This document shows, piece by piece, positions 12,601 to 34,882 of a DNA stretch of 64,000 nucleotides; position 1 is the stretch's first letter; each line of letters begins with the position of its first letter. The notes below the pieces were generated by a model. That model worked only from the letters and a program-made list of their open reading frames with translations, was not told the origin of the DNA and made no database searches. The stretch covers positions 49,081 to 113,080 of the forward strand of contig CAZXLW010000005.1 of assembly GCA_964641465.1 (NCBI GenBank), written 5' to 3'. The DNA is from an uncultured Pirellulaceae bacterium (GTDB lineage Bacteria > Planctomycetota > Planctomycetia > Pirellulales > Pirellulaceae). The position numbers and the translations under genes are program-made.

Positions 12601-13693
12601 CACCAGGTATCGAAGGGTCCCGTTCGTTCGGCGCGGTTGGATGATCCTGTTGGATCGAACGTAACGTCGCCAGAGCGTTGTCGGCACGAAACGGCAACTT
12701 GCCGGTCAGGCATTGGTACATCACGCAACCCAGGCTGAACAGATCACTACGCCCGTCCAGAGTTTCGCCACGACTTTGTTCAGGTGACATATAACAAGGC
12801 GTGCCGGCAATCATGCCGGTGCAGGTAAGCTGCGGATCTTCATCGGCGACGCGAACCAATCCGAAGTCGAGGATCTGTGCTTCTTTTTCCTGATCCGGGA
12901 TCCAGATGTTGCCTGGCTTGATATCGCGATGGATCAAGCTGTGTTGGTGTGCCGCCGCAAGTCCACCAGCCAGTTGGCTGACCAGTCGCTTTGTTTCTTC
13001 CAGTGGCAGTGTTTCTTCGGTGGCCAGTTTTTGTTCCAGAGTCTGCCCCGGAATCCATTGCATGGCGATATAAGACAACGGGCCATCCGAACCAACTTCG
13101 TAGATCGTGACCACGTTCGGATGTTCGATCGCCGCAGTCGCCTTGGCTTCGGCTACGAATCGCGTCCGGGCCTGTTCGCCCAATGACGGACGCAGGACTT
13201 TCAGAACCACGTTGCGATCAAGTCGAGTGTCGATCGCCCGATAGACGACACCAGTGCTGCCAGTCCCCAGTAACTCCTGGACTCGGAAGTGAGCGATTTG
13301 GCCTACGTCATCAGCATGTTCCGCAGACTGCAGCAAGCTGTGGACTTCGATCGCCCGATTGAGCAGCTCCGGTTTCCGGTGGGGCGCGGGGGCTCCGGAT
13401 GAATCGGTTTTCCAACTCTCGGCTTCGGACATCATGCGTTCAATCACATTGCGATCTTCCGCCGGTGACTGGTCCGCGAACTCATCGGACGTCAGTCCCA
13501 GGTCATCCTCCAACGCCTGACGGGTCAAGTCGGAAAACGTATCGTCTACCTTCAGGCCTTCCACAGTTTCCAGACACGGGTCACATTCACTTAGATGTTG
13601 CTGAGTGATTTCAATCTGATTGTCGGGTAGATGTCCTAGCAGAAACTGTTGAAGTTGCTGTTTGGATGGGCAGATGTTTTCTTGCGCGTTCAT
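9644..13693 (-). CDS. Membrane-spanning Hanks-type Ser/Thr protein kinase with a ~900-aa extracytoplasmic multidomain region
   Basis: 1349 aa. The N-terminal Cys motif 'HLSECDPCLETV' is of the zinc-finger/anti-sigma type. Kinase motifs are 'GTGSTGVVY', 'VVLKVL', 'HRDIKPGNIW', 'DFGLVR' and 'MSPEQ'. There is one TM, 'LWKSLAAMLAVLAVVAIGM'. Downstream segments resemble secretin-N and polysaccharide-export (Poly_export) modules, followed by a low-complexity linker, a coiled coil and a helical-repeat region. Confidence 0.9.
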   Translation of the reverse strand: MNAQENICPSKQQLQQFLLGHLPDNQIEITQQHLSECDPCLETVEGLKVDDTFSDLTRQALEDDLGLTSDEFADQSPAEDRNVIERMMSEAESWKTDSSGAPAPHRKPELLNRAIEVHSLLQSAEHADDVGQIAHFRVQELLGTGSTGVVYRAIDTRLDRNVVLKVLRPSLGEQARTRFVAEAKATAAIEHPNVVTIYEVGSDGPLSYIAMQWIPGQTLEQKLATEETLPLEETKRLVSQLAGGLAAAHQHSLIHRDIKPGNIWIPDQEKEAQILDFGLVRVADEDPQLTCTGMIAGTPCYMSPEQSRGETLDGRSDLFSLGCVMYQCLTGKLPFRADNALATLRSIQQDHPTAPNERDPSIPGEISDLAMCLLEKSATRRPPSAEAVINAVNKSPEHWDFALAAPIKPTRSNQHATSSFLWKSLAAMLAVLAVVAIGMNYQQIFQIVTNQGKVEIETMVDDVKIEFVQDGQVVKIVDLATKQSVVINAGRYEIRPVGDNNSVTLNKNQLTLSRGEKEIVRVTDKRDANSLSDPVDKQTNPWVASDKLCWQLKGFEIQHMPAEEAMLTVRSILGGDSTDTQKLGMHIDDRLNTLWVRIWGNHDRVMSTRIEKIISEIDQPQKTVFDASKPHKVQAGDVLGVFVDGVLGEFAASPPIHLPTEGSGLQPTVGFPVPVDYDGTIDLPIVKPIKVRGKTILEVRKLVNDVFKTGEQPILRESARIIVNLMQTRQSRRQLANTATQGQQNLPGFNSGSEANETADALSSFENAGSSGPGLVPSEEISGSNSEIARTEPIGTPGGSDSPVDLLQAANEVSSSASETAPSDPVAKLKEKAVKTLADFESGKTDELTMLDSQTRLLEELSKQPEVQNDIQFFRSRLETVERYHRLLQTSVADGSKPAKEIDALKVRLGDARKRLGDARISLSKLERSTNSQQTQPVYDGKTYEELLAIVRRERDLTQLTPAIKGIANLAEGFEKPEMIEAIMQVARRGVGVASDEAADEFEKTMQKVLHGLDLETGVNAMIREIEIGNRLSLNWYLQYSIRPCFRNALPVLIAEDPETFHELEPKFLTSIGKLAEQDWYLTVCSEFLIETLGRHAKELGPSNQPIVEAIFAKYIEKHSKNPHNYFDEFIDIAEIAPETHGLVDFVKNQLNELRSKYADNPKWVVSSHSHTLYRTEKVLKLWKTLPDNIRPNNEFVAASSFMFKAYVFKPTTTRTYFESVEIFLNAAGFDYRARDTAVKTIGSTRNGVGSKVGLEIKNNKIRMKIKSDIFGEFEFDQNMNSSLTTNQKLAEDDLVDFQTRLAGTKLDGPVKIEVSKKTGTLILKGAEADVAKARKLLDSILNEKSDGK

Positions 13694-21870: not shown

Positions 21871-24800
21871 CTACTTTCGATCCGACGAAAGGAAGTGAAA
21901 CAACGCACGGGTTTCGTCGTCGCTCATTTTTTCCAAAAGCCCTTCCGGCATCAATGACAACTTCGTTGGTTTGGAGTCTTCGATTTCTCTTGTTTCAATT
22001 GTCGCGATCTCGGTCGCGGTTTGAATTCGAGTGACTTGCGGAGTCTCCTGCAGAATGACTCCGGTCACGAATCGTCCATCGTCCAGAACAAACTTCGTCG
22101 CACGGAAGGAGTCAGCGACCGACGCATTGGGGTCGATGATGTTCTCGAGCAGATAACTGATGTTCTTGCGGTCGCCGCCAGTCAAATCAGGGCCAACGTT
22201 CTTACCGGCCCCGTGCATCACATGGCAACTTGAACACTTTTCAACAAACAATTTCTTGCCGACCTGGTAACGAGCAAGATCTTTGGCTCGCGTCAGGTTT
22301 ACGTTCTCGGTACACAGCTCTCGTACACGTTTCATTTCTTCCAGTCGTATAGCGTCTGACTGGCGAACTGTGCCCCAGACCTTGGCAAGTTTTGCCGTTA
22401 AAGCAGCGTCTTCGAAATTGGCAATCTGCCGAGCATGTTGGGCAGTAATCGCCGTTTTTGGAATTTCCCCCCTATCAACGGCCGTGAGTAATCGCTCAGC
22501 CCATTTGTTTCGACAGGTCAACGAATCAACGGCAATTCGTTTGCCTTCTGGATCAAGATGCGGGAAACGATTCAGGATGACCTGAGGAGCATTCGAATTG
22601 TCGGTGTAGACCATCGCCTTAATCACGGCATTGGACAGTGCTTTGTTGGAGGCCATGGGTCGCATAAACGAAAACAGGTCCTCCGGCCGAGTCGCGGCAT
22701 ACTCGCCGATCGCCCGTCGTCGTGATTCGACATCCGCATCCTTGCTCTTAGCAATTTTCCGAAGTTCAGCGATCCCTTGCCCGTCCCCGAATATCACATT
22801 GATCTTCTTCAAGTCAGCCTCGATAGACGACACCAATTCCGTTCGCTGAGCTTCATCTGTCTCATGCGTCATAACTGATTCATAAACCTTGTCCCATCCA
22901 GCGGGCTTCGCGATTTTGGTTCGGCCTTCCAAAGCGAGCTTCATGCCTCGCACGACATCTGAAACGATTTCTGGTCGTCCGCTATTCAACAATTGAGCCA
23001 GCTTCGAAGTCATTTCTGGCCGAGAGTCAATTTCTGCAACGATCCGTCGCGCGATGCTTTCACGAACGATCGGAATCTTCGAATCAAGAATCAGCTGAAT
23101 TGCCTGCTCCCAATTAGGAATCACATGTGGCTCAAGTCGGTGCCAGATCAAGTGCGGCTGCGTGCGGTCGCTGCGGTCTGATTCATGGCTCAACAGTGAC
23201 TTAAAGATTTCATAATCAGACTCGAAAGCGAAACGATTCAAGGCGCTGGCAATGTACAGCCGAACCAAGCCGGAAGAATCATTGGCTGCCATTTCAGTCA
23301 ATCGGGCCTTTGTTTCCGAAGACAACTCCGGTTGCTCTGCCAGCAAGCGAACTGCCCATGCGCGAACATGCTCGTCGCCAACCGCTGTCAAATTCACCAG
23401 ATAGGGCGAACTCGTACCACCCACGGAATGCAACGCCCAGAGAGCTCGAAGCATCGGACGCGAATCAGGATTCTCTGATTCATCGAATTGCATTTTCTGC
23501 GTTTCGATGAATTTTTTCAGCAACGTTTTTACCTCCGCCATATCTTCACCGGCGGTGGCTCGTTCTTGCAGGATTCGGCGAGCGTGACGGACAAACCACT
23601 GGTTATCCATTGCATTGGCAGAGACCAGTTGCGTGTCTGACCATTTCGTCAGATCAAAGTCAGCTGGCTGTTTTACTTCACCGTGAGTGATCTTGAAAAT
23701 GCGACCGGAGGTTCGATGGATACCATCGTTCTCGTGGCATTCCCCGATGTCTGACCAGTCCAGCAAATACACTCCACCATCGGGTCCATACGACATCTCG
23801 ATGCCGCGAAACCATGGATCTTCCGATTTGATCATGTCCGGTTCATGACGCGCGGTGTAACCGCAACCGTCTCGTTCCGCTCTTTCCACATTGATTCGGC
23901 GGCCATGAAAATTCGCGGTGAACCACTTATTGCGATACTGCTCCGGCCAGTTATCACCCAGATAACACATCAAACCAGTATGGGCATGCCCGCCACCTAA
24001 CGTGTCGGTAACAGCTGACATACCTTTTGTCTTGGTATTTGACCAAATCTCTTCTGAACGATTCCAGTGGTAGTGGTCGGCTGCTTGCTCGATCACCTGG
24101 TACGTGTGCGGATTGAAGTGAGCTCCGTACATTCGCCGGAACCGCGCGCCGGGAACGACATGAAACATGTGCCCGATCACTGTATTGATCATGAACATCT
24201 CGCCATGATCATCGAAGTCAAAACCCCACGGGTTGGTTCCTCCTTCGGCAACGATTTGAAATTCATCGGATTGTGGATGATATCTCCAGATGGAACAGTT
24301 CATCGCAGTCCGTTGGGAAGGCGAAGAACCGGGCGGCCCGACAAGCGAAGTCGATTGAATCCCATGCCTGCCATACAGCCAACCGTCTGGTCCCCATTGC
24401 AGACCATTGACAACGTTGTGCCGAATCTCTTCAGCATTGAATCCGTCCAGCAAGACTTTCGGTGGCCCGTCGGGAACGTCATCGCCATCGGCGTCTGGAA
24501 CGAACACCAGGTTCGGAGCCGCCGTCAACCAGACTCCACCAAAGCCCAGTTCGATGCCCGTTAGTTTCTGACCTTTGTCCCAGAATACCGTCCGCTTATC
24601 AAAGACGCCATCCTGATCGACGTCCTCCAGAATGACGACTCGATCGTGCAGTTTCAGGTCGAAGTTCTCCTTCCGATGAGAATAGGTCAAACATTCGACG
24701 ACCCACAATCGACCGCGGGAGTCCGAGGTCACCGCAATCGGCTGAATCACATCCGGCTCGTGCGCAAACAGAGTCGCATTGAATCCGGTTGGCATTTTCA

Positions 24801-24948
24801 GCGCCGTCAGTGCCTCGGTGGGCGGAGTGAACGGGATATCCAATGCTTGCGTATTCGGCGGCTCAGAATCCTGTGCAATGATAAGACCAGGAATCGCCAA
24901 AAACCAAAAACATGCTTGCCAAAACCGGCTGTTCGTTACTTTATTCAT
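21871..24948 (-). CDS. PVC-type heme-binding CxxCH protein (membrane-bound dehydrogenase-like beta-propeller + HEAT repeats + C-terminal cytochrome c domain)
   Basis: The track ORF extends to 24993. The ATG at 24948 gives the signal anchor 'MNKVTNSRFWQACFWFLAIPGLIIAQD'. The protein has an N-terminal propeller-like region, a central HEAT-like region, and a C-terminal 'CSSCHVMHGAGKNVGPDLTG' c-type heme motif. This architecture is characteristic of Planctomycetota/Verrucomicrobiota. Confidence 0.85.
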   Translation of the reverse strand: MNKVTNSRFWQACFWFLAIPGLIIAQDSEPPNTQALDIPFTPPTEALTALKMPTGFNATLFAHEPDVIQPIAVTSDSRGRLWVVECLTYSHRKENFDLKLHDRVVILEDVDQDGVFDKRTVFWDKGQKLTGIELGFGGVWLTAAPNLVFVPDADGDDVPDGPPKVLLDGFNAEEIRHNVVNGLQWGPDGWLYGRHGIQSTSLVGPPGSSPSQRTAMNCSIWRYHPQSDEFQIVAEGGTNPWGFDFDDHGEMFMINTVIGHMFHVVPGARFRRMYGAHFNPHTYQVIEQAADHYHWNRSEEIWSNTKTKGMSAVTDTLGGGHAHTGLMCYLGDNWPEQYRNKWFTANFHGRRINVERAERDGCGYTARHEPDMIKSEDPWFRGIEMSYGPDGGVYLLDWSDIGECHENDGIHRTSGRIFKITHGEVKQPADFDLTKWSDTQLVSANAMDNQWFVRHARRILQERATAGEDMAEVKTLLKKFIETQKMQFDESENPDSRPMLRALWALHSVGGTSSPYLVNLTAVGDEHVRAWAVRLLAEQPELSSETKARLTEMAANDSSGLVRLYIASALNRFAFESDYEIFKSLLSHESDRSDRTQPHLIWHRLEPHVIPNWEQAIQLILDSKIPIVRESIARRIVAEIDSRPEMTSKLAQLLNSGRPEIVSDVVRGMKLALEGRTKIAKPAGWDKVYESVMTHETDEAQRTELVSSIEADLKKINVIFGDGQGIAELRKIAKSKDADVESRRRAIGEYAATRPEDLFSFMRPMASNKALSNAVIKAMVYTDNSNAPQVILNRFPHLDPEGKRIAVDSLTCRNKWAERLLTAVDRGEIPKTAITAQHARQIANFEDAALTAKLAKVWGTVRQSDAIRLEEMKRVRELCTENVNLTRAKDLARYQVGKKLFVEKCSSCHVMHGAGKNVGPDLTGGDRKNISYLLENIIDPNASVADSFRATKFVLDDGRFVTGVILQETPQVTRIQTATEIATIETREIEDSKPTKLSLMPEGLLEKMSDDETRALFHFLSSDRK

Positions 24949-25068
24949 GCCGTTAGTATAAATGCCGCGAAATAGATAATCACTAGCCAACATAGGCCAA
25001 CGGACTACAAAAACGTTCCGAATCTTGTAAGTTGGTCAACAATCACTTAGTAGCGAGCAACCAAATAG

Positions 25069-26689: not shown

Positions 26690-29600
26690 TCAGTTCTGAG
26701 CCCCCTTTCCCTTCAGGAACTCCTTCGTCTTCTGCAACGTTTTCGCATCAGGTTCTTCGGCGCCGTTTGTGCGAAGAAACTCAATGTACGATTTGTGGCC
26801 TTCGGCAATCGCCAGAGACAAAGCTGTTTCACCCGAGTCGTGAGTTTTGAGATTCACGTCAAAGCCCTTGTCGAGGCAAAGCTGCGCCAGGGCCAATTGA
26901 TGCTCAACTGTCGGATCTTCGCCCAGAGGTCCGTAGTAAAAGTCCGAGATGAATTTGTGGGCAAGCAGATGCAGTGGGTAGAGGAAGTCGTGTTCGTAGA
27001 ATGCGTCGCGTTCTTTCAAGTAGTCAAGATTCAACTCGATAACTCGCCGGTAGTCTTCGAACATGCCTTTCCGATTGTGGCTGGTGATCGCATTGCGAAT
27101 GCAGTGAGCAGCCGCAAAGGTCGTGTGCCGCTCGCCGCAAATCTCCATACACAACTCGACGGTCCGCGCGTCGCCATGCCATGCCGATCCGTAAAGAAAC
27201 GCTTCGTGGACGTTGCCGCCCCAGTGGTCTCGAGTTTCAGCGGTCGGGTGATTTTTCAACAACCACTCAATCGTCTCGTAGTCTTTGGCGATTGCAATTG
27301 CATAGTGATTAGGATGACCGCCCAGCGAAAGCACTCGGTCGAACAATTTGATAATCTCAGGGGCGTCAGCGGCGATTGGTTTTATTTGAGCTTTCATATC
27401 TGCGTCGATATCTGAAAAGCCTTTCCAAACCATATTCTTTGGAGCGCCGGCTGCGAGTGCCGCGTTGTAGACACGCGTTTCGAATGGCACGTCACAGTTC
27501 GGGTGCGCGTGCACGTCGGCACCGGCGTCGAGCAACATGTTGATCATTTCGAAGTTGCCGTGACTCAACGCATTCATCAGCGGCATTCCTGTTTCTCTGA
27601 CTCCTTCCGGAAATGGAGGAGTCTTTTTGGCATCCGGATCGGCGCCAGCGTCCAGCAGCCGTCGCACCATTTCCAGGTTGTTCTGTCTCGTAGCCTGCCA
27701 GAGCGGGAACGAGTCGGTATCTCGATTCTCTGGATCGAAGTCTTTGCCAGCCAGCGACTGGTCCTTGGCCAGACATTCCTTTGCCGTTTCCCAATCGCCA
27801 CTTTGCATGGCATCCCAGAACTTCTTTTCAACTGCTGTTGTACTTCCCGAATTTTCTTTGCCGCTCGCGGTGATGTTTGTAGTACCGTCTTCAGGTGGAA
27901 CTGAATCTGACTTCCGGCTAAAGCCGGTACTACGAACTTGTGCTAAATCTTCAAAGAACGAGACTACTTTGTCTCGGCCTTTGGCCTTGGCAAGATCGCT
28001 GGCTGTGTTGCCTGCGTTATCGGCAACACTTGTGTCGGCTCCATGATCGACCAACAGTTTGACAACACTCGTATGGCTGTTGCGAATCGCTGCGGAGTGC
28101 AGTGAAGTTCGTCCTTCATCGTCAAGCTTATTGGGATCGGCTCCGTTTTTTAGTAACCACTTGACAGCCTCGATGGAGCCGCGATTGGAGCTGCCATGCA
28201 GCAACGTCCGCTTCTGAGCCGGGTAAATTGAGTTGATGTCAAAGCCGTTCTTTAAGATCACGTTTGCGACCTTTTCAAACGGTTCGCCACTGCGCTGATG
28301 AGGCTCAAAGGCAAATTCAACGGCTTGGTGAAGTTCGTTGATCTTGATCTGCCCGGCATCAATCAGTTTTTGCATGATGTCCGGGTTGCCACCGAACCAA
28401 GCGCACATCAGTGCCGGCGTCAGCGGGATTTCGTTTTCAACGACCAAATTCGTGGCGACGCCGCATTCGATCAGAAACTTACTCGTCGATTCCAGTTTTG
28501 ATTTGTAGTCGGCGTTGGTTCGCCCCAATCCTGAGGCTGTTGCATAGTGCAACAAGTTGAATCCATTTTCATCGCGAAGTTCGCTGATTACTTTCTCGCC
28601 GTCATCGCCTTTGGATTCAGCGAAGGTTTTTAAGTACTGAACATCGCCGACAGAAGCTCGAACAAAAGGATCTTCCGGTAAGCCAACACCATTTGCGACG
28701 TACTCAATCAATTCAATGTTGCCGTACATCGCTGCGGTACAGATCGCCGGTTGTTTCATCCAGTCAACTCGTGCCAACGGGTCGAGTCCCTTGTCGATGC
28801 AGAATTGAAGAATCTGCTGGTGCCCGTCGTTGTGCTTTACCGTTCGGAAATCGGTAACAGCTCGCTCGAATACTGCGCCCAAGTCGAATCTCTCATCGCT
28901 TTGCCAAAGTTCATGCAGTTTTTCGAAGTCGCCTTTCTTGGCAAGATCTTTGAAACGCGGAGACGCGGAGGGCGCAGAGGTAGATTCGGAGTGTTGCTCT
29001 CTTTGATCTCCCTCTCCGTGATCTCCGTGCCTCTGTGTTTTGGATTTATTCACGTCATCAGTTGAGCCCTTTGTGCCGTCAGACATGGCGTTGTCCAGCA
29101 AGTCGACAATCGCTTTATCGCGCATGTGCCAACTGGCCCAACTCAGCGGACTGTCTCCATTGGCATCTCGAATGTTTGGATCGGCTCCCGCGTCCAGCAG
29201 TAACTTGATGATCTCGGGAGTGCCATACGCAGCAGCGCGATGGAGCGGCGTTTCTCCTCGAACTCGCGCGTCACGCCACAGCATGTAGGTCTTTTTTCCG
29301 GGCAACGTTTGACGGTTCGGATCGGCGCCGGCGTCGAGTAGAGACTTGACTTGTTCGAAGTTGTCACCGCAAACTGAGTGGTGCAGTGCAGTTTCTCCGT
29401 TGTGATGGCTGGAGACATTGGCGTCAGCCCCCGCATCAAGCATCGCTTTGAGACACTCCGTGTTAAACCCAGCGATGCCGACCAGCACCGGCAAGATATT
29501 TTCGTTTCGCTGCAAGTCAGGATTCGCACCTTTCGAAAGCAAATACTTGGTGATCTCCGGATGAAAATTCAGCAATGTGCCTGAACCGTTTTCGTCATAA

Positions 29601-32600
29601 GCGTTTGGATCGGCTCCAGCTTCGATCAGCTCTTTGACTTTTTTGAGATCGCCAGCAAAAGCGGCACCCCAAAGCTCTGGGTTGCGACGAGGATTGCCTT
29701 CGAAATCCAACAACTCGATCACTTCCTGCGATGCTAGATTTCGAATCGCCAAGCAACAGGGCGTATCGCCAACTTCATTGCGTAACGTCTTGTCGGCTCC
29801 AGCATCGAGTAGCCGCTGAATCGAAACGATGTCACCGGACGTGGCTGCCTGATGCAACGTTTTAGGCGAGTTGGATTTAACCTGAAAAGGTTCCATTTCA
29901 AATCCATCCAGCGTGTCGAGGTCAAAGGCTTCATGACTGCCTCGACCGAAGTCAATTTGAACCACGTTCATAGTTTCGCTGCAGTGGTATTCTCCGTCAA
30001 TGTAATATTGGAATTTGGTACTTGTTGGGAACCAGATGCCGTCGATAACCGAAAGTTCGTTTTCAATTCGCAAGTCATAGGTTTTGTTTTTGACTTTGGA
30101 AACTCGTCGCAGCAGAACTGGTTGATAACCTTGCTTTTTTGCCAAACCAATTTCGTAGTTCCATTTCATGCCGTCCACATCAGCTTCAAACTTCACGACC
30201 CTTTGGAGGCCGTCTGCAGAATCTTCGAAACTAAAATCCCGGGCACCTTCTGGAAGCAGGTTTTCTTCCAACGAGCGCGAGTTGACCGATTCAACAAACC
30301 ACGGAATCAACCCAAACTTTCGGTAGTCGGGGTCAATCTTGGGTTCCGGTTTGCCACCCCAACGCTGTAGTGGCTGGTCATCAAAGAGTCGAACCCCATA
30401 TTCCGGCGTGTATATCTCGACCAATTGTTGGTTGAAGGACGCGTTTTCCGACAGCTGGTTGAAACGAAAACGATTGCCATCGTGATACAACTGGTAATGC
30501 CGTGGACTGGTTTCAGATCGATCGTGAAACAAAGGGTCGATGATGAATTTCAAACGAGCTTGCACGATTGAGTTGCGTGTTTTGATAATAGTGTCGACGA
30601 GATTCTTGTAGCTTTCGGCGTCCGCAACCTCGTCAGGCTCAGTGTTTGGCTGGTTAACATCGAAGCCAAGTGACTCTTTGAGCAGTGCGACGATTTCTTC
30701 GTGGCCTCCTTTTTGAGCAAGTTCCATTGGCCGATGAGCCTGAAACTCGGCAGGCAAATTCGGGTCGGCGCCGTGCTTTAGCAGCTCGCGAACCAATTCA
30801 ATATCACCACGATCGGCTGCGCTGGACAAAGCTGTCCGTTGCCGCTCGATGTTTACGGCATTGACGTCGCCACCGGCATCGACGAACGCAGAAACAAAGG
30901 CCACATCTTTATTCCAGTGCAGTTTTGTCGCACCCATCCATTTCACCGAAGTGTCGACAGGTTTTACTTCCGCACCATGTTCAGTGAGTAACTCAAGCAA
31001 TCGACCTTCGAATCCGCGTGCATTGCGTTCAGCGATTCGCGACTTGGCTTCGTCACCAAATCGTTTCAGGTACGCTTCCAGTAAGTCTGCATCTCGATAG
31101 AGCAGGATGACCTCCAGCAAATGCCTGACTTGCCAATCGGAAACGGTATCACGAGCCAGGACTTCGCGGACCGCTGCGGCGGCGACTTCATGTTCAGGCT
31201 TGTCGTTACGTTGCGGAATAACGATATGTTCTTTGCCACTGTGTTCGTTGAGCAGCTCAATCATCCGCTTGCGATCGGCTTTATCTTTAATCCACAAGTT
31301 TGCAGCAAACAATGTGTCGCCAGAACTGTCCGAGAACTGCATCGGCTCAGCACCGTTCTTAAGCAACAACTCGGCACTTTCATATTCGTTGCGGCTGACG
31401 GCGGTATAAAGTGCGCATCCGAATGGAGCGGTGTGCTCCGTCATGTTCGGGTCGGCCTTGTGCTCAAGCAGCAACTGCAGCATCTCAAGGTTCCCAACGG
31501 CGGCATTCAAAGGGCTGCCCAGATGGCCAGGCATATGGTGGACCAGAGATTTGTCTTTAGCCAGCATCTTTTTGACTTGTTCCAGATCACCACTGCCGAT
31601 CGCTGTATGGAAATCGACTTCGGCGCCCAGCTCCAGCAGCCTGTCTCGAGCCGCTATAACGTGCGACCAATCATCCAGTCCGCGGACCAACTCCTTTTTG
31701 CGGTTGGTCCACATCTTCACCTGATGCGGCATGGCATGCGCGCCGTTGCGGCGACTGGGATCAGCACCTCGTTCAACCAGCAAATCAATCATCGGGATTT
31801 GCCGTGAGAATGCTGCCCAATGCAGCGCCGTGTTGCCGTCTTCGTCGGCAATGTTTACTCGCTCAGCATCTTCGTCGAGTAGTTGCTTCATCGCTTCGAC
31901 GTCTTGATCGCACAACGCCTGAACCATCAGCTGTATATCGGGATGGTAGTTGAATTTGTTTTCGATCCGCTGCAGCATCAAGTCATGGATCTCATCGTGC
32001 CCCATTTCTTTGGCGATACTCAACATCCGTTCCCAACCGTACCAGCCCCACTTTTCCGTGAGCTCCGTGTCGGCCGTCAGCAGAATCTTGACGCATTGTG
32101 TGTGGCCGCCGTAGATCGCCAGATCAAGCGGACAGTGATATCGGAACGCAAGGTCCTTTAGCCGAGAATCCTTTTCGATCAGCTTTTTGACGACTTCCGC
32201 TTTTCCATCGGCTGCCGCGCACCACAGTTCCCAACCATCGTCGTAATCAATTTCACGCGAAGCCAAACCAAAAGGAGCTTGCCAGGGATGCAGATCATTG
32301 ATGTCCGCATCTCCGTAGCCAAAGGAAAGGTCAGGGCGTTGCATGCGAGTGAAGTTGTCGGAGTAACGAGGCATTGCTTTACTTTCGTATTTGTTTTCTA
32401 AGTCAGAAAAGAGGCTGGAGGCGAGCAGGCATGTTCCCGCAACAAGGACGGGCAATGTGATTAGTACCAGTGGAATACGAGCCCGAAGCGTCAGCGAGTG
32501 GTTTATTAGAGGGCCTGTTCCCAAAAACCACTTACTTGCGTTTCGGGCTTGCATTGGTGGGTCAGCTGCACGACTCTCAACAATCCTTTGGACTCGTATC

Positions 32601-33610
32601 AGCAGCGAACCGTCCGTAGCCGCAAGCGCCGGGCTTGTCCTGGCTGATGCACCACTGCGACATTGCTCCAGTTGCAACAGCGCACGTGCGTAAGTGATCT
32701 GGTCGCTGCTCTGACGTACAACTTCTTCATCAGCGGCAAACTCGCGCTCGGTGCGAATCTGTTTTGACAACCACCAAACGCATGGATGATAAAACAGTAA
32801 CGACTCGATGCCCGTTTGCATCACATTGACGAGATAGTCATGTCGTTTGATGTGTATCAGTTCGTGCAGCAGTATCAACTCAAATTCACGAGCACTCAAG
32901 CCACTCACCATCGCAGGCGGAAGCAGAATAATCGGCTTCAGCCAGCCTATTAGTGTTGGCACGTCAACGAGTTTTGATTGCTTGAGCTGGATTCGCGTAG
33001 ACAACCCCATTCGTTGGATCAGTTTCTCGAACGGTGCCAAGACTTCGATCGGTGGTTGGCTGGTATCGGTAAGGCTTAACTGACGGGCTTTGCTCCATTG
33101 CATCATCGAATGGCCAAGCATAACCAATGCTCCGAGCAACCAAAGCCACGCCAGACCTGTCAGCCAATAGTTTGCCTGAACCGAGGTGACGGCGACGTCC
33201 GCAATTTTCGCATGTTGCGGCGGAAAACCTGGCTCGATTCGCTCGAGGTTGATTGGAGTGGCGCGGTTGGTTTCAACAGCTCCATCAAACTGGACGCCGG
33301 GTCCCCATTCTCGGGCCTGTAAATCAGCGGTGCGATTTACTAATTGCAGCTGCCGAGGTCGTTCCGACAAAGCCGCAGGTGAATCGGAGATCGAAAATGT
33401 TGCTATTGGTGCCAACAACATCAACAACAGCCCGCAACATTGGATTACATATCGAGAATTTGCTGAGCGAAGCAACTTCAACGCTTGCCCGATTCTCAGG
33501 AGCAAAGTAACTGCGATCGCAATCAGAGCGATTTGCCAAAGCGAATGCAGCAACGCAATCCCGATCCGTTGCAGAACAGGATTGCCGAACAAATCAGCGA
33601 TACCGTTCAT
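26690..33610 (-). CDS. BlaR1/MecR1-type M56 zinc-metalloprotease signal transducer fused to a giant ankyrin-repeat region
   Basis: 2306 aa. The N-terminal ~400 aa form a TM bundle ('LLHSLWQIALIAIAV...') with the HEXXH motif 'HELIH' encoded at 32866..32852 and the M56-typical 'LLFYHPCVWWL'. The last TM is 'IPLVLITLPVLVAGTCLLASSLF' at about aa 380-400. About 1900 aa follow, in which I count roughly 20 ankyrin loop signatures (e.g. 'DAGADPNIRD', 'KHGADPNLPA', 'KNGADPNKLD', 'TALHWAA', 'TPLHRAAAYG'). A ~300-aa non-ankyrin insert and two Ser/Thr/Gly-rich linkers interrupt the repeats. The ATG overlaps the blaI stop by 1 nt. Confidence 0.9.
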   Translation of the reverse strand: MNGIADLFGNPVLQRIGIALLHSLWQIALIAIAVTLLLRIGQALKLLRSANSRYVIQCCGLLLMLLAPIATFSISDSPAALSERPRQLQLVNRTADLQAREWGPGVQFDGAVETNRATPINLERIEPGFPPQHAKIADVAVTSVQANYWLTGLAWLWLLGALVMLGHSMMQWSKARQLSLTDTSQPPIEVLAPFEKLIQRMGLSTRIQLKQSKLVDVPTLIGWLKPIILLPPAMVSGLSAREFELILLHELIHIKRHDYLVNVMQTGIESLLFYHPCVWWLSKQIRTEREFAADEEVVRQSSDQITYARALLQLEQCRSGASARTSPALAATDGSLLIRVQRIVESRAADPPMQARNASKWFLGTGPLINHSLTLRARIPLVLITLPVLVAGTCLLASSLFSDLENKYESKAMPRYSDNFTRMQRPDLSFGYGDADINDLHPWQAPFGLASREIDYDDGWELWCAAADGKAEVVKKLIEKDSRLKDLAFRYHCPLDLAIYGGHTQCVKILLTADTELTEKWGWYGWERMLSIAKEMGHDEIHDLMLQRIENKFNYHPDIQLMVQALCDQDVEAMKQLLDEDAERVNIADEDGNTALHWAAFSRQIPMIDLLVERGADPSRRNGAHAMPHQVKMWTNRKKELVRGLDDWSHVIAARDRLLELGAEVDFHTAIGSGDLEQVKKMLAKDKSLVHHMPGHLGSPLNAAVGNLEMLQLLLEHKADPNMTEHTAPFGCALYTAVSRNEYESAELLLKNGAEPMQFSDSSGDTLFAANLWIKDKADRKRMIELLNEHSGKEHIVIPQRNDKPEHEVAAAAVREVLARDTVSDWQVRHLLEVILLYRDADLLEAYLKRFGDEAKSRIAERNARGFEGRLLELLTEHGAEVKPVDTSVKWMGATKLHWNKDVAFVSAFVDAGGDVNAVNIERQRTALSSAADRGDIELVRELLKHGADPNLPAEFQAHRPMELAQKGGHEEIVALLKESLGFDVNQPNTEPDEVADAESYKNLVDTIIKTRNSIVQARLKFIIDPLFHDRSETSPRHYQLYHDGNRFRFNQLSENASFNQQLVEIYTPEYGVRLFDDQPLQRWGGKPEPKIDPDYRKFGLIPWFVESVNSRSLEENLLPEGARDFSFEDSADGLQRVVKFEADVDGMKWNYEIGLAKKQGYQPVLLRRVSKVKNKTYDLRIENELSVIDGIWFPTSTKFQYYIDGEYHCSETMNVVQIDFGRGSHEAFDLDTLDGFEMEPFQVKSNSPKTLHQAATSGDIVSIQRLLDAGADKTLRNEVGDTPCCLAIRNLASQEVIELLDFEGNPRRNPELWGAAFAGDLKKVKELIEAGADPNAYDENGSGTLLNFHPEITKYLLSKGANPDLQRNENILPVLVGIAGFNTECLKAMLDAGADANVSSHHNGETALHHSVCGDNFEQVKSLLDAGADPNRQTLPGKKTYMLWRDARVRGETPLHRAAAYGTPEIIKLLLDAGADPNIRDANGDSPLSWASWHMRDKAIVDLLDNAMSDGTKGSTDDVNKSKTQRHGDHGEGDQREQHSESTSAPSASPRFKDLAKKGDFEKLHELWQSDERFDLGAVFERAVTDFRTVKHNDGHQQILQFCIDKGLDPLARVDWMKQPAICTAAMYGNIELIEYVANGVGLPEDPFVRASVGDVQYLKTFAESKGDDGEKVISELRDENGFNLLHYATASGLGRTNADYKSKLESTSKFLIECGVATNLVVENEIPLTPALMCAWFGGNPDIMQKLIDAGQIKINELHQAVEFAFEPHQRSGEPFEKVANVILKNGFDINSIYPAQKRTLLHGSSNRGSIEAVKWLLKNGADPNKLDDEGRTSLHSAAIRNSHTSVVKLLVDHGADTSVADNAGNTASDLAKAKGRDKVVSFFEDLAQVRSTGFSRKSDSVPPEDGTTNITASGKENSGSTTAVEKKFWDAMQSGDWETAKECLAKDQSLAGKDFDPENRDTDSFPLWQATRQNNLEMVRRLLDAGADPDAKKTPPFPEGVRETGMPLMNALSHGNFEMINMLLDAGADVHAHPNCDVPFETRVYNAALAAGAPKNMVWKGFSDIDADMKAQIKPIAADAPEIIKLFDRVLSLGGHPNHYAIAIAKDYETIEWLLKNHPTAETRDHWGGNVHEAFLYGSAWHGDARTVELCMEICGERHTTFAAAHCIRNAITSHNRKGMFEDYRRVIELNLDYLKERDAFYEHDFLYPLHLLAHKFISDFYYGPLGEDPTVEHQLALAQLCLDKGFDVNLKTHDSGETALSLAIAEGHKSYIEFLRTNGAEEPDAKTLQKTKEFLKGKGAQN

Positions 33611-33999
33611 CAGCCATCTCCCTGTTGAAGTTGGTCAAGCAACTCGCGAATCTCGTCCAGTTCTTCCTGTGATGCTTTCTTGGAGGAAAGCGCCTGGATG
33701 ACCATACGGCCAGGGGAGCCTCCGTAAACACGATCCATCAAGTCACGCATCATTCCCTTCTGCGTCGTCTCCTGTTTCTTGACGGTGCGATAAATGTGCG
33801 GCCGTGCCGATTCGTCTCGTTTGACAAGTTCTTTGTCCAACATCACCGACAACATTTTGACGGTCGTCGAGTAATTAGTTTCCTTGTTCCTTGAGATCGC
33901 TTCGTGGATAACACGCACCGGCGACGGGCCAAATTCCCAGAGCACTCGCAGTATTTGCAATTCCGCAGCAGTTGGTTGCGATGAACTTTCCCAAGGCAT
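33610..33999 (-). CDS. BlaI/MecI/CopY-family winged-helix transcriptional repressor
   Basis: The track ORF begins at GTG 34068. The ATG at 33999 gives 'MPWESSSQPTAAELQILRVLWEFGPSPVRVIHEAISRNKETNYSTTVKMLSVMLDKELVKRDESARPHIY', the canonical Penicillinase_R fold pattern. The stop overlaps the blaR1-like start (TGATG). Confidence 0.85.
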   Translation of the reverse strand: MPWESSSQPTAAELQILRVLWEFGPSPVRVIHEAISRNKETNYSTTVKMLSVMLDKELVKRDESARPHIYRTVKKQETTQKGMMRDLMDRVYGGSPGRMVIQALSSKKASQEELDEIRELLDQLQQGDG

Positions 34000-34098
34000 A
34001 ATTGACTCTTTTCTGTGTTGAAGTCGGGTAAGCCTGTGAAGCCAGGTTGGCAATGCGAACGCTTGCACCGAAAGCCGACTTGCTGTTTCCGGTCAGTT

Positions 34099-34116
34099 TA
34101 GCGAAGTTCTTCGCTA
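34099..34116. promoter_or_regulatory. Perfect 18-bp palindrome TAGCGAAG-TT-CTTCGCTA upstream of blaI (candidate operator)
   Basis: Read directly. It lies 100 nt upstream of the ATG at 33999. A degenerate second copy (AGCGAA-AGAC-TTCGCT, 34130..34145) is nested in an AAGCCA/TGGCTT inverted repeat (34121..34154). Operator function is inferred only. Confidence 0.3.
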
Positions 34117-34282
34117 GTGCAAGCCAAAAAGCGAAAGACTTCGCTAACTGGCTTAACGAGGGGTTTTTTAGAGTTGGCCACAGATGGGCACGGATAAACA
34201 CGGATCAAAAACTGTTTCGTGTTTTTGCTTGAATTCGCCAACGATGAAGGTCTTCGGAACGCGTTTTAACTGAATCACGTAT

Positions 34283-34579
34283 TTAGCCTTCGTAGATGAC
34301 GTAGTCAATTTCTTGCCAGGACTCGACTTCCGGGATCCAGATATCATTGACGAAAGCAACGTGTTCAGGATGTTCGTTGTAGAACTGGTAGGTGTCTTCA
34401 TCGTCGAATTCCATTGACAATCCAAAACGATGCTCGCATTTTGAGCTAACATGTCGCAAGATTTCGAATTTTTTGACAGTCGCGATTTGATCAAGCTTCT
34501 GGGCAGCTTCGAGCAATCGCTTTTCCGCTTCCGTTCCGGCCTCATGCTTGGGAGTGAACATCACAGTGTGTCGGATCAT
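34283..34579 (-). CDS. Dabb-family stress-responsive alpha/beta-barrel protein
   Basis: The track ORF extends to 34672. The ATG at 34579 gives 'MIRHTVMFTPKHEAG...FEILRHVSSKCEHRFGLSMEFDDEDTYQFYNEHPEHVAFV', which is the Dabb domain pattern at ~98 aa. Confidence 0.75.
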   Translation of the reverse strand: MIRHTVMFTPKHEAGTEAEKRLLEAAQKLDQIATVKKFEILRHVSSKCEHRFGLSMEFDDEDTYQFYNEHPEHVAFVNDIWIPEVESWQEIDYVIYEG

Positions 34580-34882
34580 CAGTTTTCTGGTGGCTTGTTG
34601 GGTGCGAGTCGAATAAACGTTGGCATTGCCAAGCTGGGCACCGAGTTTGCCATCGTTTATGCCACGAATCAACAGCTTCGGCTCCCTTTTTAAATAAAAC
34701 CCATCGGCGGGCGGTTTGGATATAACGTCGAGTTTTCAAGCCCTTAAGAGTACTGGACCGCACAATCGGAACCTGGTTTCAGGATCATTCCTTGGAATGG
34801 CATTTTTGATTTCGTAGTAGGTACAATAGGTTTCGATTGTTATTTTAAATGTGTTCTTACTAAATTCTTCTCAGAGCTACAG

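What the first reader, a model, noticed from the sequence alone, without database searches (positions are those of the whole stretch)
26690..34068. BlaI/BlaR1-type regulatory pair whose sensor carries a ~1900-aa predicted periplasmic ankyrin-repeat array
Seen: a BlaI-like winged-helix repressor is translationally coupled (TGATG overlap at 33610) to a 2306-aa protein. The first ~400 aa of that protein form a typical M56 transducer, with a TM bundle, HELIH at 32866..32852, 'FYHPCVWW' and a final TM at about aa 380-400. All the rest follows that last TM. It holds roughly 20 recognisable ankyrin loops (GADPN/GADVN type, 'TALHWAA', 'TPLHRAAAYG') in several blocks, a ~300-aa non-ankyrin insert, and two low-complexity linkers. 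Known: in BlaR1/MecR1 the domain after the last TM is extracellular and is the ligand sensor (a penicillin-binding domain), and signalling leads to proteolytic inactivation of BlaI. Ankyrin repeats are protein-protein interaction modules that are usually cytosolic or belong to secreted effectors. Inference: this is a BlaR1-type proteolytic switch that has replaced the beta-lactam sensor with an enormous protein-binding scaffold. It may sense envelope or extracellular proteins. Neither the regulon nor the signal is known.
Basis: partly seen in the sequence, partly recalled or inferred. Interest (0 to 1): 0.7.

Follow-up and report, generated by a model that had tools for sequence, protein, structure and literature searches.

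The report
BlaI/BlaR-type switch with giant ankyrin tail
This is a real two-gene repressor and membrane-protease switch of the BlaI/BlaR family from a Pirellulaceae-type planctomycete, in which the usual penicillin-sensing domain is replaced by a roughly 1,900-residue ankyrin-repeat region predicted to lie outside the cytoplasmic membrane; it is an uncharacterised member of a family already known to carry very diverse sensor domains.

Summary
Window 33610-33999(-) encodes a 129-aa BlaI/MecI/CopY-type repressor (Pfam Penicillinase_R, E 2e-26). It overlaps by one base (TGATG) a 2306-aa ORF, 26690-33610(-). Residues 1-400 of that ORF are a Peptidase_M56 module: Pfam E 2e-37, H249ExxH253 and E290xxxD294 invariant in 60 homologues, four strong TM helices, and S. 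aureus BlaR1 cryo-EM structures as the best AF2/Foldseek match. Everything after TM4 (aa 379-397) is soluble. It holds 19-25 ankyrin repeats in four blocks, a ~250-aa orphan beta-rich insert and two low-complexity linkers.

The ORF is not an artefact. It has no DNA repeats, a 98%-identical full-length copy sits in an independent assembly, and dN/dS is 0.12-0.15. BlaR1 topology, charge bias across TM4 in 120 homologues, and paralogues carrying Secretin, POTRA, Poly_export or PD40 after the same TM4 all place the ankyrin region outside the cytoplasm. That is inference, not proof.

Two GCGAA-N4-TTCGC palindromes sit in the blaI promoter and are conserved in five orthologous loci. They predict autoregulation.

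Novelty is modest. A 2026 survey already reports 254 M56 architectures, with only ~6% beta-lactam sensors, and M56-ankyrin fusions recur in public data. The signal and the regulon remain unknown.

The parts
33610..33999 (-). blaI-like repressor gene (129 aa, winged-helix Penicillinase_R; no Cys, so not a CopY-type metal sensor)
   Evidence: Pfam PF03965 E 2e-26, covering 2-115 of 115 profile positions. Full-length alignment to S. aureus BlaI 1SD4 (E 2e-8), M. tuberculosis 2G9W and MecI. The ATG-33999 start is conserved in L001, L002, L005 and L008.
26690..33610 (-). M56-ankyrin gene (2306 aa). It overlaps the blaI stop by 1 nt (TGATG).
   Evidence: A 98%-identical full-length orthologue is P0001/L001.
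32411..33610 (-). M56 transmembrane-protease module (aa 1-400). TM1 is aa 20-38, TM2 56-74, an outside loop 75-147, TM3 148-166, the cytoplasmic gluzincin domain with a re-entrant segment 217-238, and TM4 379-397.
   Evidence: Hydropathy. AF2 pLDDT 75 and pTM 0.69. Foldseek best hits are BlaR1 8EXS/8EXT/8EXQ/8EXP/8EXR, E 5e-6, prob 1.0. phmmer aligns aa 206-312 to BlaR1 158-266.
32852..32866 (-). HELIH zinc-binding and catalytic motif (H249, E250, H253)
   Evidence: Invariant in alignments of 50 and 60 homologues. Aligns with BlaR1 H201EYAH205.
32729..32743 (-). E290-F-A-A-D294, the third zinc ligand motif (ExxxD)
   Evidence: E290 and D294 are invariant. Aligns with BlaR1 E242VEAD246 (motif defined in PMC9834060).
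32420..32476 (-). TM4 (aa 379-397), the last membrane helix. It is followed by the conserved juxtamembrane motif MPRYSD (aa 414-419).
   Evidence: KD19 = 2.39, the strongest in the protein. No segment above 1.4 occurs after it. Flanking charge is K/R 2 before; K/R 2 and D/E 3 after.
30677..32233 (-). Ankyrin block 1 (aa ~460-978), about 10 repeats including degenerate ones
   Evidence: Pfam Ank families. Repeat HMM. dN/dS 0.15 against L001.
29876..30676 (-). Orphan non-ankyrin insert (aa ~979-1245). It has an N-terminal helix and then a predicted meander of beta strands. GC is 0.47 against ~0.53 in the flanks.
   Evidence: No Pfam hit and no PDB sequence hit. No word-index homologue. No homologue among the 150 listed hits (all E<=3e-10) of an exhaustive search of 1.84 billion representatives. 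No homologue among the 270 proteins fetched up to that point. Absent from orthologues P0003/L002 and L004, where the flanks are contiguous. AF2 pLDDT is 40 and the fold is unresolved. GC.
29096..29875 (-). Ankyrin block 2 (aa 1246-1505), 5 repeats including 'NFHPE...NENILPVLVG' and 'TPLHRAAAYG'
   Evidence: 70-75% identical blocks occur in P0004 and P0005.
28958..29095 (-). Low-complexity linker 1 (aa 1506-1551)
   Evidence: Sequence.
27944..28957 (-). Helical/ankyrin block 3 (aa 1552-1889)
27827..27943 (-). Low-complexity linker 2 (aa 1890-1928)
   Evidence: Sequence.
26693..27826 (-). C-terminal ankyrin/helical module (aa 1929-2306). It is shared by all close M56-Ank orthologues and duplicated in P0002.
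   Evidence: Free-standing 376-397-aa homologues without signal peptides are P0272-P0275.
34100..34115 (.). Proximal operator candidate, palindrome AGCGAAG-NN-CTTCGCT. It lies in the 16-nt spacer between the putative -35 and -10 hexamers.
   Evidence: Conserved in L001, L002, L004, L005, L006 and L008.
34130..34145 (.). Distal operator candidate (same palindrome, 1 mismatch), 30 bp from the proximal one
34095..34122 (-). Putative sigma-70-like promoter TTGCAC-N16-TAAACT (inferred)
   Evidence: Read from the sequence. The same layout occurs in L002 (TTGTGT/TAAGCT), L005 (TTGCAT/TAAATT) and L008 (TTGACG-16-TAGAAT). The strict consensus scan did not call it.

Best explanation
This is an autoregulated BlaI/BlaR-family (Peptidase M56) proteolytic signalling pair from a Pirellulaceae-type planctomycete.

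Proposed mechanism:
1. BlaI-like dimers bind two GCGAA-N4-TTCGC palindromes. One lies between the -35 and -10 hexamers of the operon's own promoter, so binding represses blaI and the M56-ankyrin gene.
2. The 2306-aa protein sits in the cytoplasmic membrane with BlaR1 topology (N-out, four TM helices, C-out). Its gluzincin site (H249, E250, H253, E290) faces the cytoplasm.
3. The ~1,900-aa ankyrin-rich region lies in the enlarged planctomycetal periplasm and serves as the input module. It binds a macromolecular, most likely protein, ligand.
4. Ligand binding is relayed through TM4 and the outside loop to the protease. The protease inactivates BlaI and the operon is derepressed, together with any distal targets.

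What is shown: gene pair and coupling, family membership, intact catalytic motifs, fold, position of all ankyrin repeats after the last TM, conserved operator-like palindromes, and purifying selection.

What is inferred: outside location, BlaI cleavage, ankyrin as the sensor, and the nature of the ligand.
For: Family and motifs:
- Pfam and NCBIfam hits.
- Invariant HExxH and ExxxD in 50-60 homologues.
- The AF2 model of aa 1-450 has BlaR1 cryo-EM structures as its top six PDB matches, E 5e-6 to 5e-4, prob 1.0.
- The sequence aligns to the BlaR1 active-site region.

Topology:
- There are four strong hydrophobic helices and nothing above threshold after aa 400.
- Positive-inside bias: loop 1 carries +4 and 0 acidic residues; the protease side of TM3 and TM4 carries +2 each.
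- In 120 homologues K+R averages 2.7 before TM4 and 1.2 after, while D+E averages 1.0 before and 2.5 after. Only 2 of 120 have another hydrophobic segment downstream.
- BlaR1 is Nout-Cout with a cytosolic active site (PMC9834060).
- Paralogues with the same chassis carry PD40, Secretin, POTRA, Poly_export/SLBB, ExbD or CarboxypepD_reg after TM4.
- In other M56-Ank fusions the ankyrin repeats share the post-TM4 chain with CarboxypepD_reg/Big_1/MG4, FG-GAP or Laminin_G_3.

Regulation:
- The window holds exactly two palindromes, both in the blaI promoter. Chance expectation is 0.26-0.31; 4 of 100 shuffles reached two.
- The same pair, at 30-33 bp spacing, lies upstream of blaI in every orthologous locus whose upstream DNA was available (L001, L002, L004, L005, L006, L008), although the flanking DNA diverges.
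- In L008 the proximal site fills the spacer of a near-consensus TTGACG-16-TAGAAT promoter.
- About 96% of M56 proteins have a BlaI gene within five genes, and the family is proposed to share a mechanism of signal-induced BlaI proteolysis (PMC13492132).

Reality of the ORF.

Biological plausibility: planctomycetes have an extended periplasm into which macromolecules are taken up (PMC12673574).
Against: - No topology was measured. DeepTMHMM was not available, so the outside location rests on homology, charge bias and domain co-occurrence.
- Free-standing homologues of the C-terminal module (33-37% identity, ~94% coverage) have no signal peptide. One is a genuine gene in the complete Mariniblastus fucicola genome, not next to an M56 gene. 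The module can therefore apparently work in the cytoplasm.
- The S. aureus BlaI cleavage dipeptide N101-F102 aligns with Q-A here, so cleavage cannot be inferred from the site.
- No target gene other than the operon itself carries the palindrome in 64 kb, and neighbouring genes are not conserved between orthologous loci. The output is unknown.
- Nothing identifies the ligand.
- The promoter hexamers are weak and were not called by the consensus scan.
Confidence: 0.6

Rival explanations
1. The ankyrin array is the payload rather than the sensor. In this reading the protein is a membrane-anchored periplasmic scaffold, tether or binder/neutraliser (compare the periplasmic ankyrin protein Bd3460, which blocks peptidoglycan endopeptidases). 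The M56-BlaI part only provides feedback control of the protein's own abundance. The signal would be sensed elsewhere, for example by the aa 75-147 outside loop, or through occupancy or folding stress of the array.
For: - The only operator sites found are at the operon's own promoter, and no conserved neighbouring target gene exists.
- Paralogues carry structural or machine domains such as Secretin, POTRA and Poly_export, which look like effectors more than ligand sensors.
- Bd3460 is a precedent (PMC4686830).
Against: - In every characterised BlaIR system the extracytoplasmic C-terminal domain is the input (PMC9834060, PMC13492132).
- The exact-match operator scan of other genomes was very stringent, so distal targets are not excluded.
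Confidence: 0.25
2. The ankyrin region is cytoplasmic, because of atypical topology or a TM4 that does not span the membrane. It would then recruit cytosolic substrates or partners to the M56 protease.
For: - Ankyrin repeats are mostly cytosolic.
- Free-standing homologues of the C-terminal module lack signal peptides.
- Neighbouring standalone ankyrin proteins in L007 also lack them.
Against: - TM4 is the most hydrophobic segment of the protein (KD 2.39), and there is no further hydrophobic segment to bring the chain back.
- The fold matches BlaR1, with its cytosolic active site and C-out topology.
- The charge bias holds in 120 homologues.
- Ankyrin repeats co-occur after TM4 with CarboxypepD_reg, Big_1, FG-GAP and LamG domains, and paralogues carry Secretin or POTRA there.
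Confidence: 0.08
3. The giant ORF is an assembly artefact, produced by collapsed, expanded or chimeric repeats, or it is a decaying pseudogene.
For: - Divergence between the window and L001 is mosaic.
- Blocks are shared with other chassis at 94-96% nucleotide identity. In metagenome assemblies this could partly reflect chimeric contigs.
Against: - No DNA-level repeats in 6.9 kb.
- An uninterrupted 2306-codon ORF.
- The same full-length ORF in an independent scaffold with the same flanking genes.
- dN/dS of 0.12-0.15 in the divergent blocks.
- Orthologues of 1766-2349 aa in other assemblies.
Confidence: 0.02

Closest known systems
S. aureus BlaR1/BlaI and MecR1/MecI (canonical beta-lactam sensor-transducer and repressor; cryo-EM 8EXP-8EXT)
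   Same: - M56 membrane-protease fold with four TM helices plus a re-entrant segment.
- HExxH and ExxxD motifs.
- The input domain follows the last TM.
- A winged-helix BlaI-type repressor is encoded in the same operon.
- Paired dyad operators sit at the promoter.
   Different: - There is no penicillin-binding (transpeptidase/OXA-like) domain. NCBIfam blaR1_generic scores 101 bits against a cut-off of 400.
- The C-terminal region is ~1,900 aa of ankyrin repeats instead of ~250 aa.
- The repressor gene lies upstream and is translationally coupled.
- The operator is GCGAA-N4-TTCGC.
- The BlaI N101-F102 cleavage dipeptide is not conserved.
Non-canonical BlaIR systems without a beta-lactam domain: C. 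difficile CenIR, M. tuberculosis/M. abscessus BlaIR (Rv1846c/Rv1845c), P. aeruginosa PvmSR
   Same: These are M56 protease and BlaI repressor pairs whose input is not a beta-lactam. The general concept that 'BlaR' C-terminal domains are diverse (254 architectures, ~6% with a TP domain, 96% next to BlaI) is already published (PMC13492132; bioRxiv 10.64898/2026.08.03.742534).
   Different: Those proteins have short, absent or unstructured C-terminal regions. Here the region is a giant folded repeat array, and no member with an ankyrin input has been studied (one search found no paper combining the two terms).
Giant M56 paralogues of Pirellulales/Planctomycetota (uncharacterised; e.g. 'Regulatory protein BlaR1' of Novipirellula aureliae P0019, 'M56 family metallopeptidase' of Rhodopirellula sp. 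SWK7 P0023)
   Same: The same chassis at 30-40% identity, a single TM4 followed by 1,000-3,000 aa of soluble modules, and the same lineage.
   Different: Their C-terminal modules are CarboxypepD_reg, HEAT, WD40, LRR, Secretin, ExbD, PD40, thioredoxin-like and others. Ankyrin is one option among many; 13 of the 120 listed carry it.
Periplasmic ankyrin-repeat proteins: Bdellovibrio Bd3460, Rickettsia RARP-1
   Same: Ankyrin repeats working as protein binders in the periplasm of Gram-negative bacteria (PMC4686830; bioRxiv 10.1101/2022.02.23.481736).
   Different: Those are small soluble proteins exported by signal peptides. They are not fused to a membrane protease or linked to a repressor.
Anti-sigma factor receptors that bind protein ligands (e.g. 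RsiV-lysozyme)
   Same: They work alike in principle: an extracytoplasmic protein-binding domain controls proteolytic release of a transcription factor (PMC4183432, listed).
   Different: The machinery is unrelated (site-1/site-2 proteolysis of an anti-sigma factor). This is an analogy only and was not tested.

Membership tests
Peptidase M56 (BlaR1/MecR1 family, PF05569) | Profile match above the curated threshold | tested here: met
   129.3 bits against a cut-off of 31, aa 133-323.
Peptidase M56 (BlaR1/MecR1 family, PF05569) | Gluzincin motifs HExxH and ExxxD | tested here: met
   H249ELIH253 and E290FAAD294, invariant in 50-60 homologues. They align to BlaR1 H201/H205 and E242/D246.
Peptidase M56 (BlaR1/MecR1 family, PF05569) | Four TM helices plus a re-entrant segment, Nout-Cout, BlaR1-like fold | tested here: met
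   Hydropathy, AF2 and Foldseek to 8EXS and relatives at E 5e-6. The orientation itself is inferred from charge bias.
Peptidase M56 (BlaR1/MecR1 family, PF05569) | Adjacent BlaI-type repressor gene | tested here: met
   1-nt overlap with the PF03965 gene. The same pairing occurs in L001, L002, L005 and L008.
Peptidase M56 (BlaR1/MecR1 family, PF05569) | Zinc-dependent cleavage of the cognate repressor | not testable with these tools
   Needs biochemistry.
Bona fide beta-lactam sensor BlaR1/MecR1 | C-terminal penicillin-binding (transpeptidase/class D-like) sensor domain | tested here: not met
   No PF00905 or related hit. NCBIfam scores: blaR1_generic 100.9 against 400, sensor_MecR1 33.7 against 1200, sensor_BlaR1 16.8 against 1200.
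BlaI/MecI/CopY repressor family (PF03965) | Full-length winged-helix plus dimerisation-domain match | tested here: met
   93 bits against 22.6, profile positions 2-115 of 115. PDB BlaI 1SD4 at E 2e-8 over residues 10-125.
BlaI/MecI/CopY repressor family (PF03965) | Specific subfamily: BlaI or MecI equivalog, or CopY with a C-terminal Cys metal site | tested here: not met
   All NCBIfam subfamily scores are below cut-off: 50.7 against 180 and 42.5 against 121.95. The protein contains no cysteine. The N101-F102 site is Q-A.
BlaI/MecI/CopY repressor family (PF03965) | Dyad operators overlapping the regulated promoter | tested here: inconclusive
   Two conserved GCGAA-N4-TTCGC palindromes lie in the promoter region in the window and six related loci. 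Binding was not tested.
Ankyrin-repeat proteins (PF12796/PF00023) | Multiple 33-residue repeats matching the profile | tested here: met
   Ank_2 E 5e-105 with 9 stretches. 19 repeats at i-E<0.01.
Extracytoplasmic (periplasmic) sensor domain | Located on the trans side of the membrane from the protease | tested here: inconclusive
   Predicted. Partly countered by free-standing homologues without signal peptides. No dedicated topology predictor or experiment was available.

The most novel reading that the evidence does not exclude
Pirellulaceae may keep a recombining repertoire of BlaI-M56 switches. Their giant periplasmic repeat arrays (ankyrin here; HEAT, WD40 or LRR in paralogues) would act as receptors for proteins or other macromolecules taken up into the enlarged planctomycetal periplasm.

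In this reading, ankyrin cassettes are exchanged between otherwise divergent M56/BlaI chassis: 94-96% nucleotide identity in the cassettes against ~72% in the chassis. Orphan domains are inserted as well. The result would be a diversifying receptor system wired to transcription by proteolysis.
Probability: 0.12. Interest if true: 0.7.

Novelty: new member of a known kind. Interest (0 to 1): 0.33.

Why it matters
If the prediction holds, this protein is one of the largest single-chain transmembrane sensors in bacteria. It would also be a clear case of ankyrin repeats used as an extracytoplasmic input to a proteolytic transcription switch.

It adds a concrete, testable example to the recent view that BlaIR systems are general envelope or environment sensors rather than antibiotic sensors. 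The example comes with a defined operator candidate and promoter layout.

It also points to planctomycetes, with their enlarged periplasm that takes up macromolecules, as the place where this family has diversified most.

In itself it is an uncharacterised member of a catalogued family. Neither the signal nor the regulon can be read from the sequence.

Tried and rejected
- Orphan insert. Pfam at E<=1 gave only a sub-threshold DUF7397 hit. A PDB sequence search found nothing and the word-index homologue search found nothing.
- Exhaustive phmmer. I set the query to aa 1024-1290, which included ~45 aa of the next ankyrin repeat. All 150 listed hits matched through that tail. The result therefore shows only that the insert has no homologue among the 150 listed hits (all E<=3e-10); weaker ones were not visible.
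- Single-sequence AF2 of the insert gave pLDDT 40, and Foldseek found nothing significant. A LolB match had prob 0.99 but E 0.32, so I keep it only as a lead.
- A local phmmer of the insert against the 270 proteins fetched up to that point hit only P0001.
- The exact-protein lookup of the window ORF was not on record.
- The strict sigma-70 scan found no promoter. The promoter proposed here is read by eye and by conservation.
- The exact 19-mer operator scan of genome representatives found three Pirellulaceae MAGs plus one Bdellovibrionota hit. The three Pirellulaceae hits were all at blaI promoters (the Bdellovibrionota hit, L003, was not examined), so no regulon member was found.
- Literature searches for M56 with ankyrin, or BlaR1 in planctomycetes, found nothing specific.
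- P0271, an apparent 378-aa free-standing copy 97% identical to the C-terminus, proved to be a contig-edge fragment of the same gene and was discarded.
- The standalone ankyrin genes next to P0002 (L007) have no signal peptides and gave no link to the system.
- I considered a CopY-type metal-sensing repressor and rejected it: the protein has no Cys and scores below the cut-off.
- I considered an assembly artefact and rejected it.

Full report
**1. What is in the sequence**

On the minus strand, ORF 26690-33610 encodes 2306 aa. The ORF upstream, 33610-34068 at its maximum, encodes a BlaI-like protein. The two share base 33610 (…GGC TGA TG AAC…), so the repressor's TGA stop overlaps the ATG of the large gene.

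Pfam gives Peptidase_M56 for aa 133-323 of the large protein (129 bits, cut-off 31). It also gives very strong ankyrin families (Ank_2 E 5e-105) and Penicillinase_R for the small protein (93 bits, cut-off 22.6, whole profile covered).

- HELIH is aa 249-253, nt 32852-32866.
- FYHPCVWW is aa 273-280.
- The last TM is aa 379-397.

The repressor's real start is almost certainly ATG 33999 (129 aa, MPWESS…). This is how the gene is called in the 98%-identical locus L001, and the N-terminus is conserved in the orthologues of L002, L005 and L008. The upstream GTG extension is not conserved.

**2. The ORF is real**

- The 6.9-kb ORF has no tandem or dispersed DNA repeats, so the ankyrin repeats are diverged at the nucleotide level.
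- An independent metagenome scaffold (L001) carries the same 2306-codon ORF at 98.4% nucleotide identity with the same neighbours.
- Other assemblies hold orthologues of 2349 aa (P0003, 67% identity in the N-terminal ~980 aa) and 1766 aa (P0004, a gene call truncated at the N-terminus).
- Between the window and L001, dN/dS is 0.18 overall and 0.12-0.15 in the two divergent blocks.

**3. Anatomy of the large protein**

Hydropathy shows four strong helices (aa 20-38, 56-74, 148-166, 379-397) and a weaker segment at 217-238 just before HELIH. Nothing exceeds the threshold after aa 400.

In alignments of 50 and 60 homologues, H249, E250, H253, E290 and D294 are invariant.

An AF2 model of aa 1-450 built from a 50-sequence alignment reached pLDDT 75 and pTM 0.69. 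Its six best PDB matches are all S. aureus BlaR1 cryo-EM structures, E 5e-6 to 5e-4, prob 1.0. phmmer aligns aa 206-312 to BlaR1 158-266, pairing HELIH with H201EYAH205 and EFAAD with E242VEAD246.

The BlaR1 structure paper describes four TM helices, a re-entrant loop carrying HExxH, a cytosol-facing active site and an Nout-Cout topology (PMC9834060). The weak 217-238 segment therefore corresponds to the re-entrant part of the protease and is not a fifth TM.

After TM4 the protein contains:
- a conserved juxtamembrane motif, MPRYSD;
- ankyrin block 1 (aa ~460-978);
- a non-ankyrin insert (aa ~979-1245);
- ankyrin block 2 (aa 1246-1505);
- a low-complexity linker (aa 1506-1551);
- a helical/ankyrin block (aa 1552-1889);
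- a second linker (aa 1890-1928);
- a C-terminal ankyrin/helical module (aa 1929-2306).

An iterated repeat HMM finds 19 ankyrin repeats at i-E<0.01 and 25 at <1.

**4. Which side of the membrane?**

No dedicated predictor was available, so I combined five independent lines.
- (a) Homology to BlaR1 in fold and topology.
- (b) The positive-inside rule. Loop 1 has 4 K/R and no acidic residues. The segments after TM3 and before TM4 have 2 K/R each and no acidic residues. The 15 residues after TM4 have 2 K/R and 3 D/E.
- (c) The same bias across 120 homologues. K+R averages 2.7 before TM4 and 1.2 after; D+E averages 1.0 before and 2.5 after. Only 2 of 120 have any further strongly hydrophobic segment.
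- (d) Paralogues with the same chassis carry, after TM4, domain types that work only in the periplasm or outer membrane: PD40, Secretin, POTRA, Poly_export+SLBB, ExbD and CarboxypepD_reg.
- (e) In other M56-ankyrin fusions the ankyrin repeats share the post-TM4 chain with CarboxypepD_reg/Big_1/MG4, FG-GAP or Laminin_G_3 domains, with no intervening hydrophobic segment.

Together these make an extracytoplasmic ankyrin region the best-supported reading.

One observation points the other way. The C-terminal module has free-standing homologues of 376-397 aa (33-37% identity, ~94% coverage) that start directly with the domain and have no signal peptide. One is a genuine gene in the complete Mariniblastus fucicola genome and is not next to an M56 gene. 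The module is therefore not restricted to the periplasm. An apparent 378-aa copy at 97% identity (P0271) is only a contig-edge fragment of this same gene.

**5. Regulation**

Upstream of blaI there are two copies of the palindrome AGCGAAG-NN-CTTCGCT, at 34100-34115 and 34130-34145. These are the only matches in 64 kb, to the 16-mer with up to two mismatches and to the core GCGAA-N4-TTCGC. Chance expectation is 0.26-0.31, and 4 of 100 shuffles reached two.

The same pair, 30-33 bp apart, lies upstream of blaI in L001, L002, L004, L005, L006 and L008, although the surrounding DNA has diverged. L007 starts inside blaI, so it gives no information.

In the window the proximal dyad fills the 16-nt spacer of TTGCAC…TAAACT. 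In L008 it fills the spacer of a near-consensus TTGACG-16-TAGAAT. This is the classical arrangement for repression by promoter occlusion. The strict consensus scan did not call a promoter in the window, so the hexamers are an inference.

The genes flanking the pair differ between orthologous loci. In L002 a second BlaI-M56 pair without this operator follows directly. The pair is therefore a self-contained, probably autoregulated module. Any distal regulon is unknown. An exact 19-mer scan of species-representative genomes found three Pirellulaceae MAGs, each hit lying at a blaI promoter, plus one Bdellovibrionota hit (L003) that I did not examine further.

The repressor aligns over its full length with S. 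aureus BlaI, M. tuberculosis Rv1846c and MecI. It has no cysteine, so it is not a CopY-type metal sensor. The S. aureus N101-F102 cleavage dipeptide aligns with Q-A.

**6. The insert**

Residues ~979-1245 have:
- no Pfam match;
- no PDB sequence match;
- no word-index homologue;
- no homologue among the 270 proteins fetched up to that point, other than P0001.

In the exhaustive search all 150 listed hits matched through the ankyrin tail that I had mistakenly left in the query. It shows only that the insert has no homologue among the 150 listed hits (all E<=3e-10).

The insert is exactly absent from the orthologues P0003/L002 and L004, where the flanking blocks are contiguous. Its GC content is lower, 0.47 against ~0.53. 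Single-sequence AF2 suggests an N-terminal helix followed by a beta meander, but pLDDT is only 40. Foldseek gave nothing significant. A LolB match (prob 0.99, E 0.32) is no more than a lead.

**7. How it compares with what is known**

The N-terminal module meets every sequence and fold criterion for Peptidase M56. The protein fails the criteria for a true beta-lactam sensor: it has no transpeptidase-like domain, and NCBIfam blaR1_generic scores 101 against a cut-off of 400.

A 2026 J Bacteriol paper on C. difficile CenIR surveyed ~15,000 M56 proteins. It found 254 architectures, only ~6% with the beta-lactam-binding domain, and 96% within five genes of a BlaI homologue. It concluded that BlaIR systems sense varied signals (PMC13492132). 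Non-canonical BlaIR systems are also described in mycobacteria and P. aeruginosa. The concept of a BlaR1-type switch with a non-beta-lactam input is therefore already established, and 'replacement of the beta-lactam sensor' is not the right evolutionary framing.

M56-ankyrin fusions recur. Thirteen of the 120 best hits carry both, two of them named by JGI 'ankyrin repeat protein/beta-lactamase regulating signal transducer'. Further examples appear. They have very different architectures, down to a 600-aa protein (P0309).

The larger setting is an abundant set of giant (1,300-3,400 aa) M56 paralogues in Pirellulales with almost any repeat or periplasmic module after TM4.

Periplasmic ankyrin proteins also have precedents: Bd3460 and RARP-1.

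I found no paper on M56-ankyrin proteins or on the planctomycetal M56 expansion.

**8. Mechanism proposed**

My best reading (confidence ~0.6) is an autoregulated BlaIR-type switch.
1. BlaI dimers occupy the two dyads and block the promoter.
2. The M56 protein sits Nout-Cout with its zinc site in the cytoplasm.
3. The ankyrin array in the periplasm binds a macromolecular ligand.
4. The change is relayed through TM4 and the aa 75-147 outside loop, the counterpart of BlaR1's EL1.
5. The protease inactivates BlaI.

Planctomycetes have an extended periplasm into which macromolecules are taken up (PMC12673574). That gives periplasmic protein-binding sensors a plausible purpose, but this link is speculative.

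The main rival (~0.25) is that the array is the payload, a scaffold or binder whose level is feedback-controlled. This fits the absence of any other detectable target. A cytoplasmic array (~0.08) and an artefact (~0.02) are unlikely.

**9. Verdict**

The architectural interpretation is supported, the functional one is untested, and the novelty claim is over-stated. This is a new, uncharacterised member of a known and recently surveyed kind.

Its notable points are its size, the ankyrin input, a clean operator candidate, and signs of cassette exchange. Interest is about 0.33.

Noticed in passing
window 26720-29896 vs L007 1525-4683; window 30677-32980 vs L004 894-3197: There are signs of cassette exchange between divergent chassis.
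- P0002 (L007) has an M56 module only 38% identical at the protein level (~71-75% nt in conserved patches). Its C-terminal 3,159 nt are 95.9% identical to the window.
- In L004, ankyrin block 1 is 94.4% identical, while blaI and the N-terminus are ~72% identical.

This suggests recent recombination of ankyrin cassettes between BlaI-M56 paralogues or lineages. Chimeric metagenome assembly is not excluded.
   Followed up: partly
window 26690-33610 vs L001 10001-16921: Divergence between two near-identical strains is mosaic. There are zero differences in aa 1-400 and 985-1510. In aa 401-984 dS is 0.145, and in aa 1929-2306 it is 0.077, both with dN/dS 0.12-0.15.
   Followed up: partly
window 29876-30676: A ~250-aa orphan beta-rich domain is inserted between ankyrin blocks. 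It is absent from the closest orthologues, has lower GC (0.47), and has no detectable homologue anywhere. Its fold is unresolved; a LolB-like match is only a weak lead.
   Followed up: yes
proteins P0110, P0104, P0072, P0025, P0014 (homologues): Paralogous M56 proteins are fused after TM4 to Secretin, POTRA, Poly_export+SLBB, PD40 or ExbD domains. These are single chains that would link an inner-membrane protease to outer-membrane-type modules.
   Followed up: partly
L009 8001-9176 (Mariniblastus fucicola CP042912.1, within 1885729-1902904); P0272-P0274: Free-standing ~380-390-aa homologues of the C-terminal ankyrin/helical module have no signal peptide and no M56 neighbour.
   Followed up: partly
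L002 9157-12618: A second BlaI-M56 pair (156 aa and 806 aa, with a weak Esterase_PHB hit) lies directly downstream of the M56-ankyrin orthologue. It lacks the GCGAA-N4-TTCGC operator, so the tandem paralogous switches probably have different operator specificity.
   Followed up: no
window 32354-32371 (aa 414-419): The juxtamembrane motif (A/T/P)M(P/S)RYSD follows directly after TM4 and is conserved in the window protein, P0002, P0003 and P0004. In P0002 it marks the junction to the swapped cassette.
   Followed up: no
window 9644-13693 (-): A 1349-aa Ser/Thr protein kinase carries a Poly_export domain at aa 630-707. It is another giant modular putative transmembrane sensor in the same window.
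   Followed up: no
window 21871-24993 (-) vs L001 18618-21739 and L010 2983-6065: The DUF7133-HEAT-cytochrome c gene is one 1040-aa ORF in the window but is called as two genes (789 + 247/235 aa) in two related assemblies. This may be a frameshift or stop polymorphism, or an assembly error.
   Followed up: no
window 45149-51882 (-): A 616-aa pentapeptide-repeat protein is encoded immediately upstream of gyrA/parC-like and gyrB/parE-like topoisomerase genes. The arrangement recalls Qnr/MfpA-type topoisomerase-protecting proteins.
   Followed up: no
window 34283-34672 (-): A Dabb (stress-responsive A/B barrel) gene lies directly upstream of the blaI promoter on the same strand. It is also present in L001 but not in other orthologous loci.
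   Followed up: no
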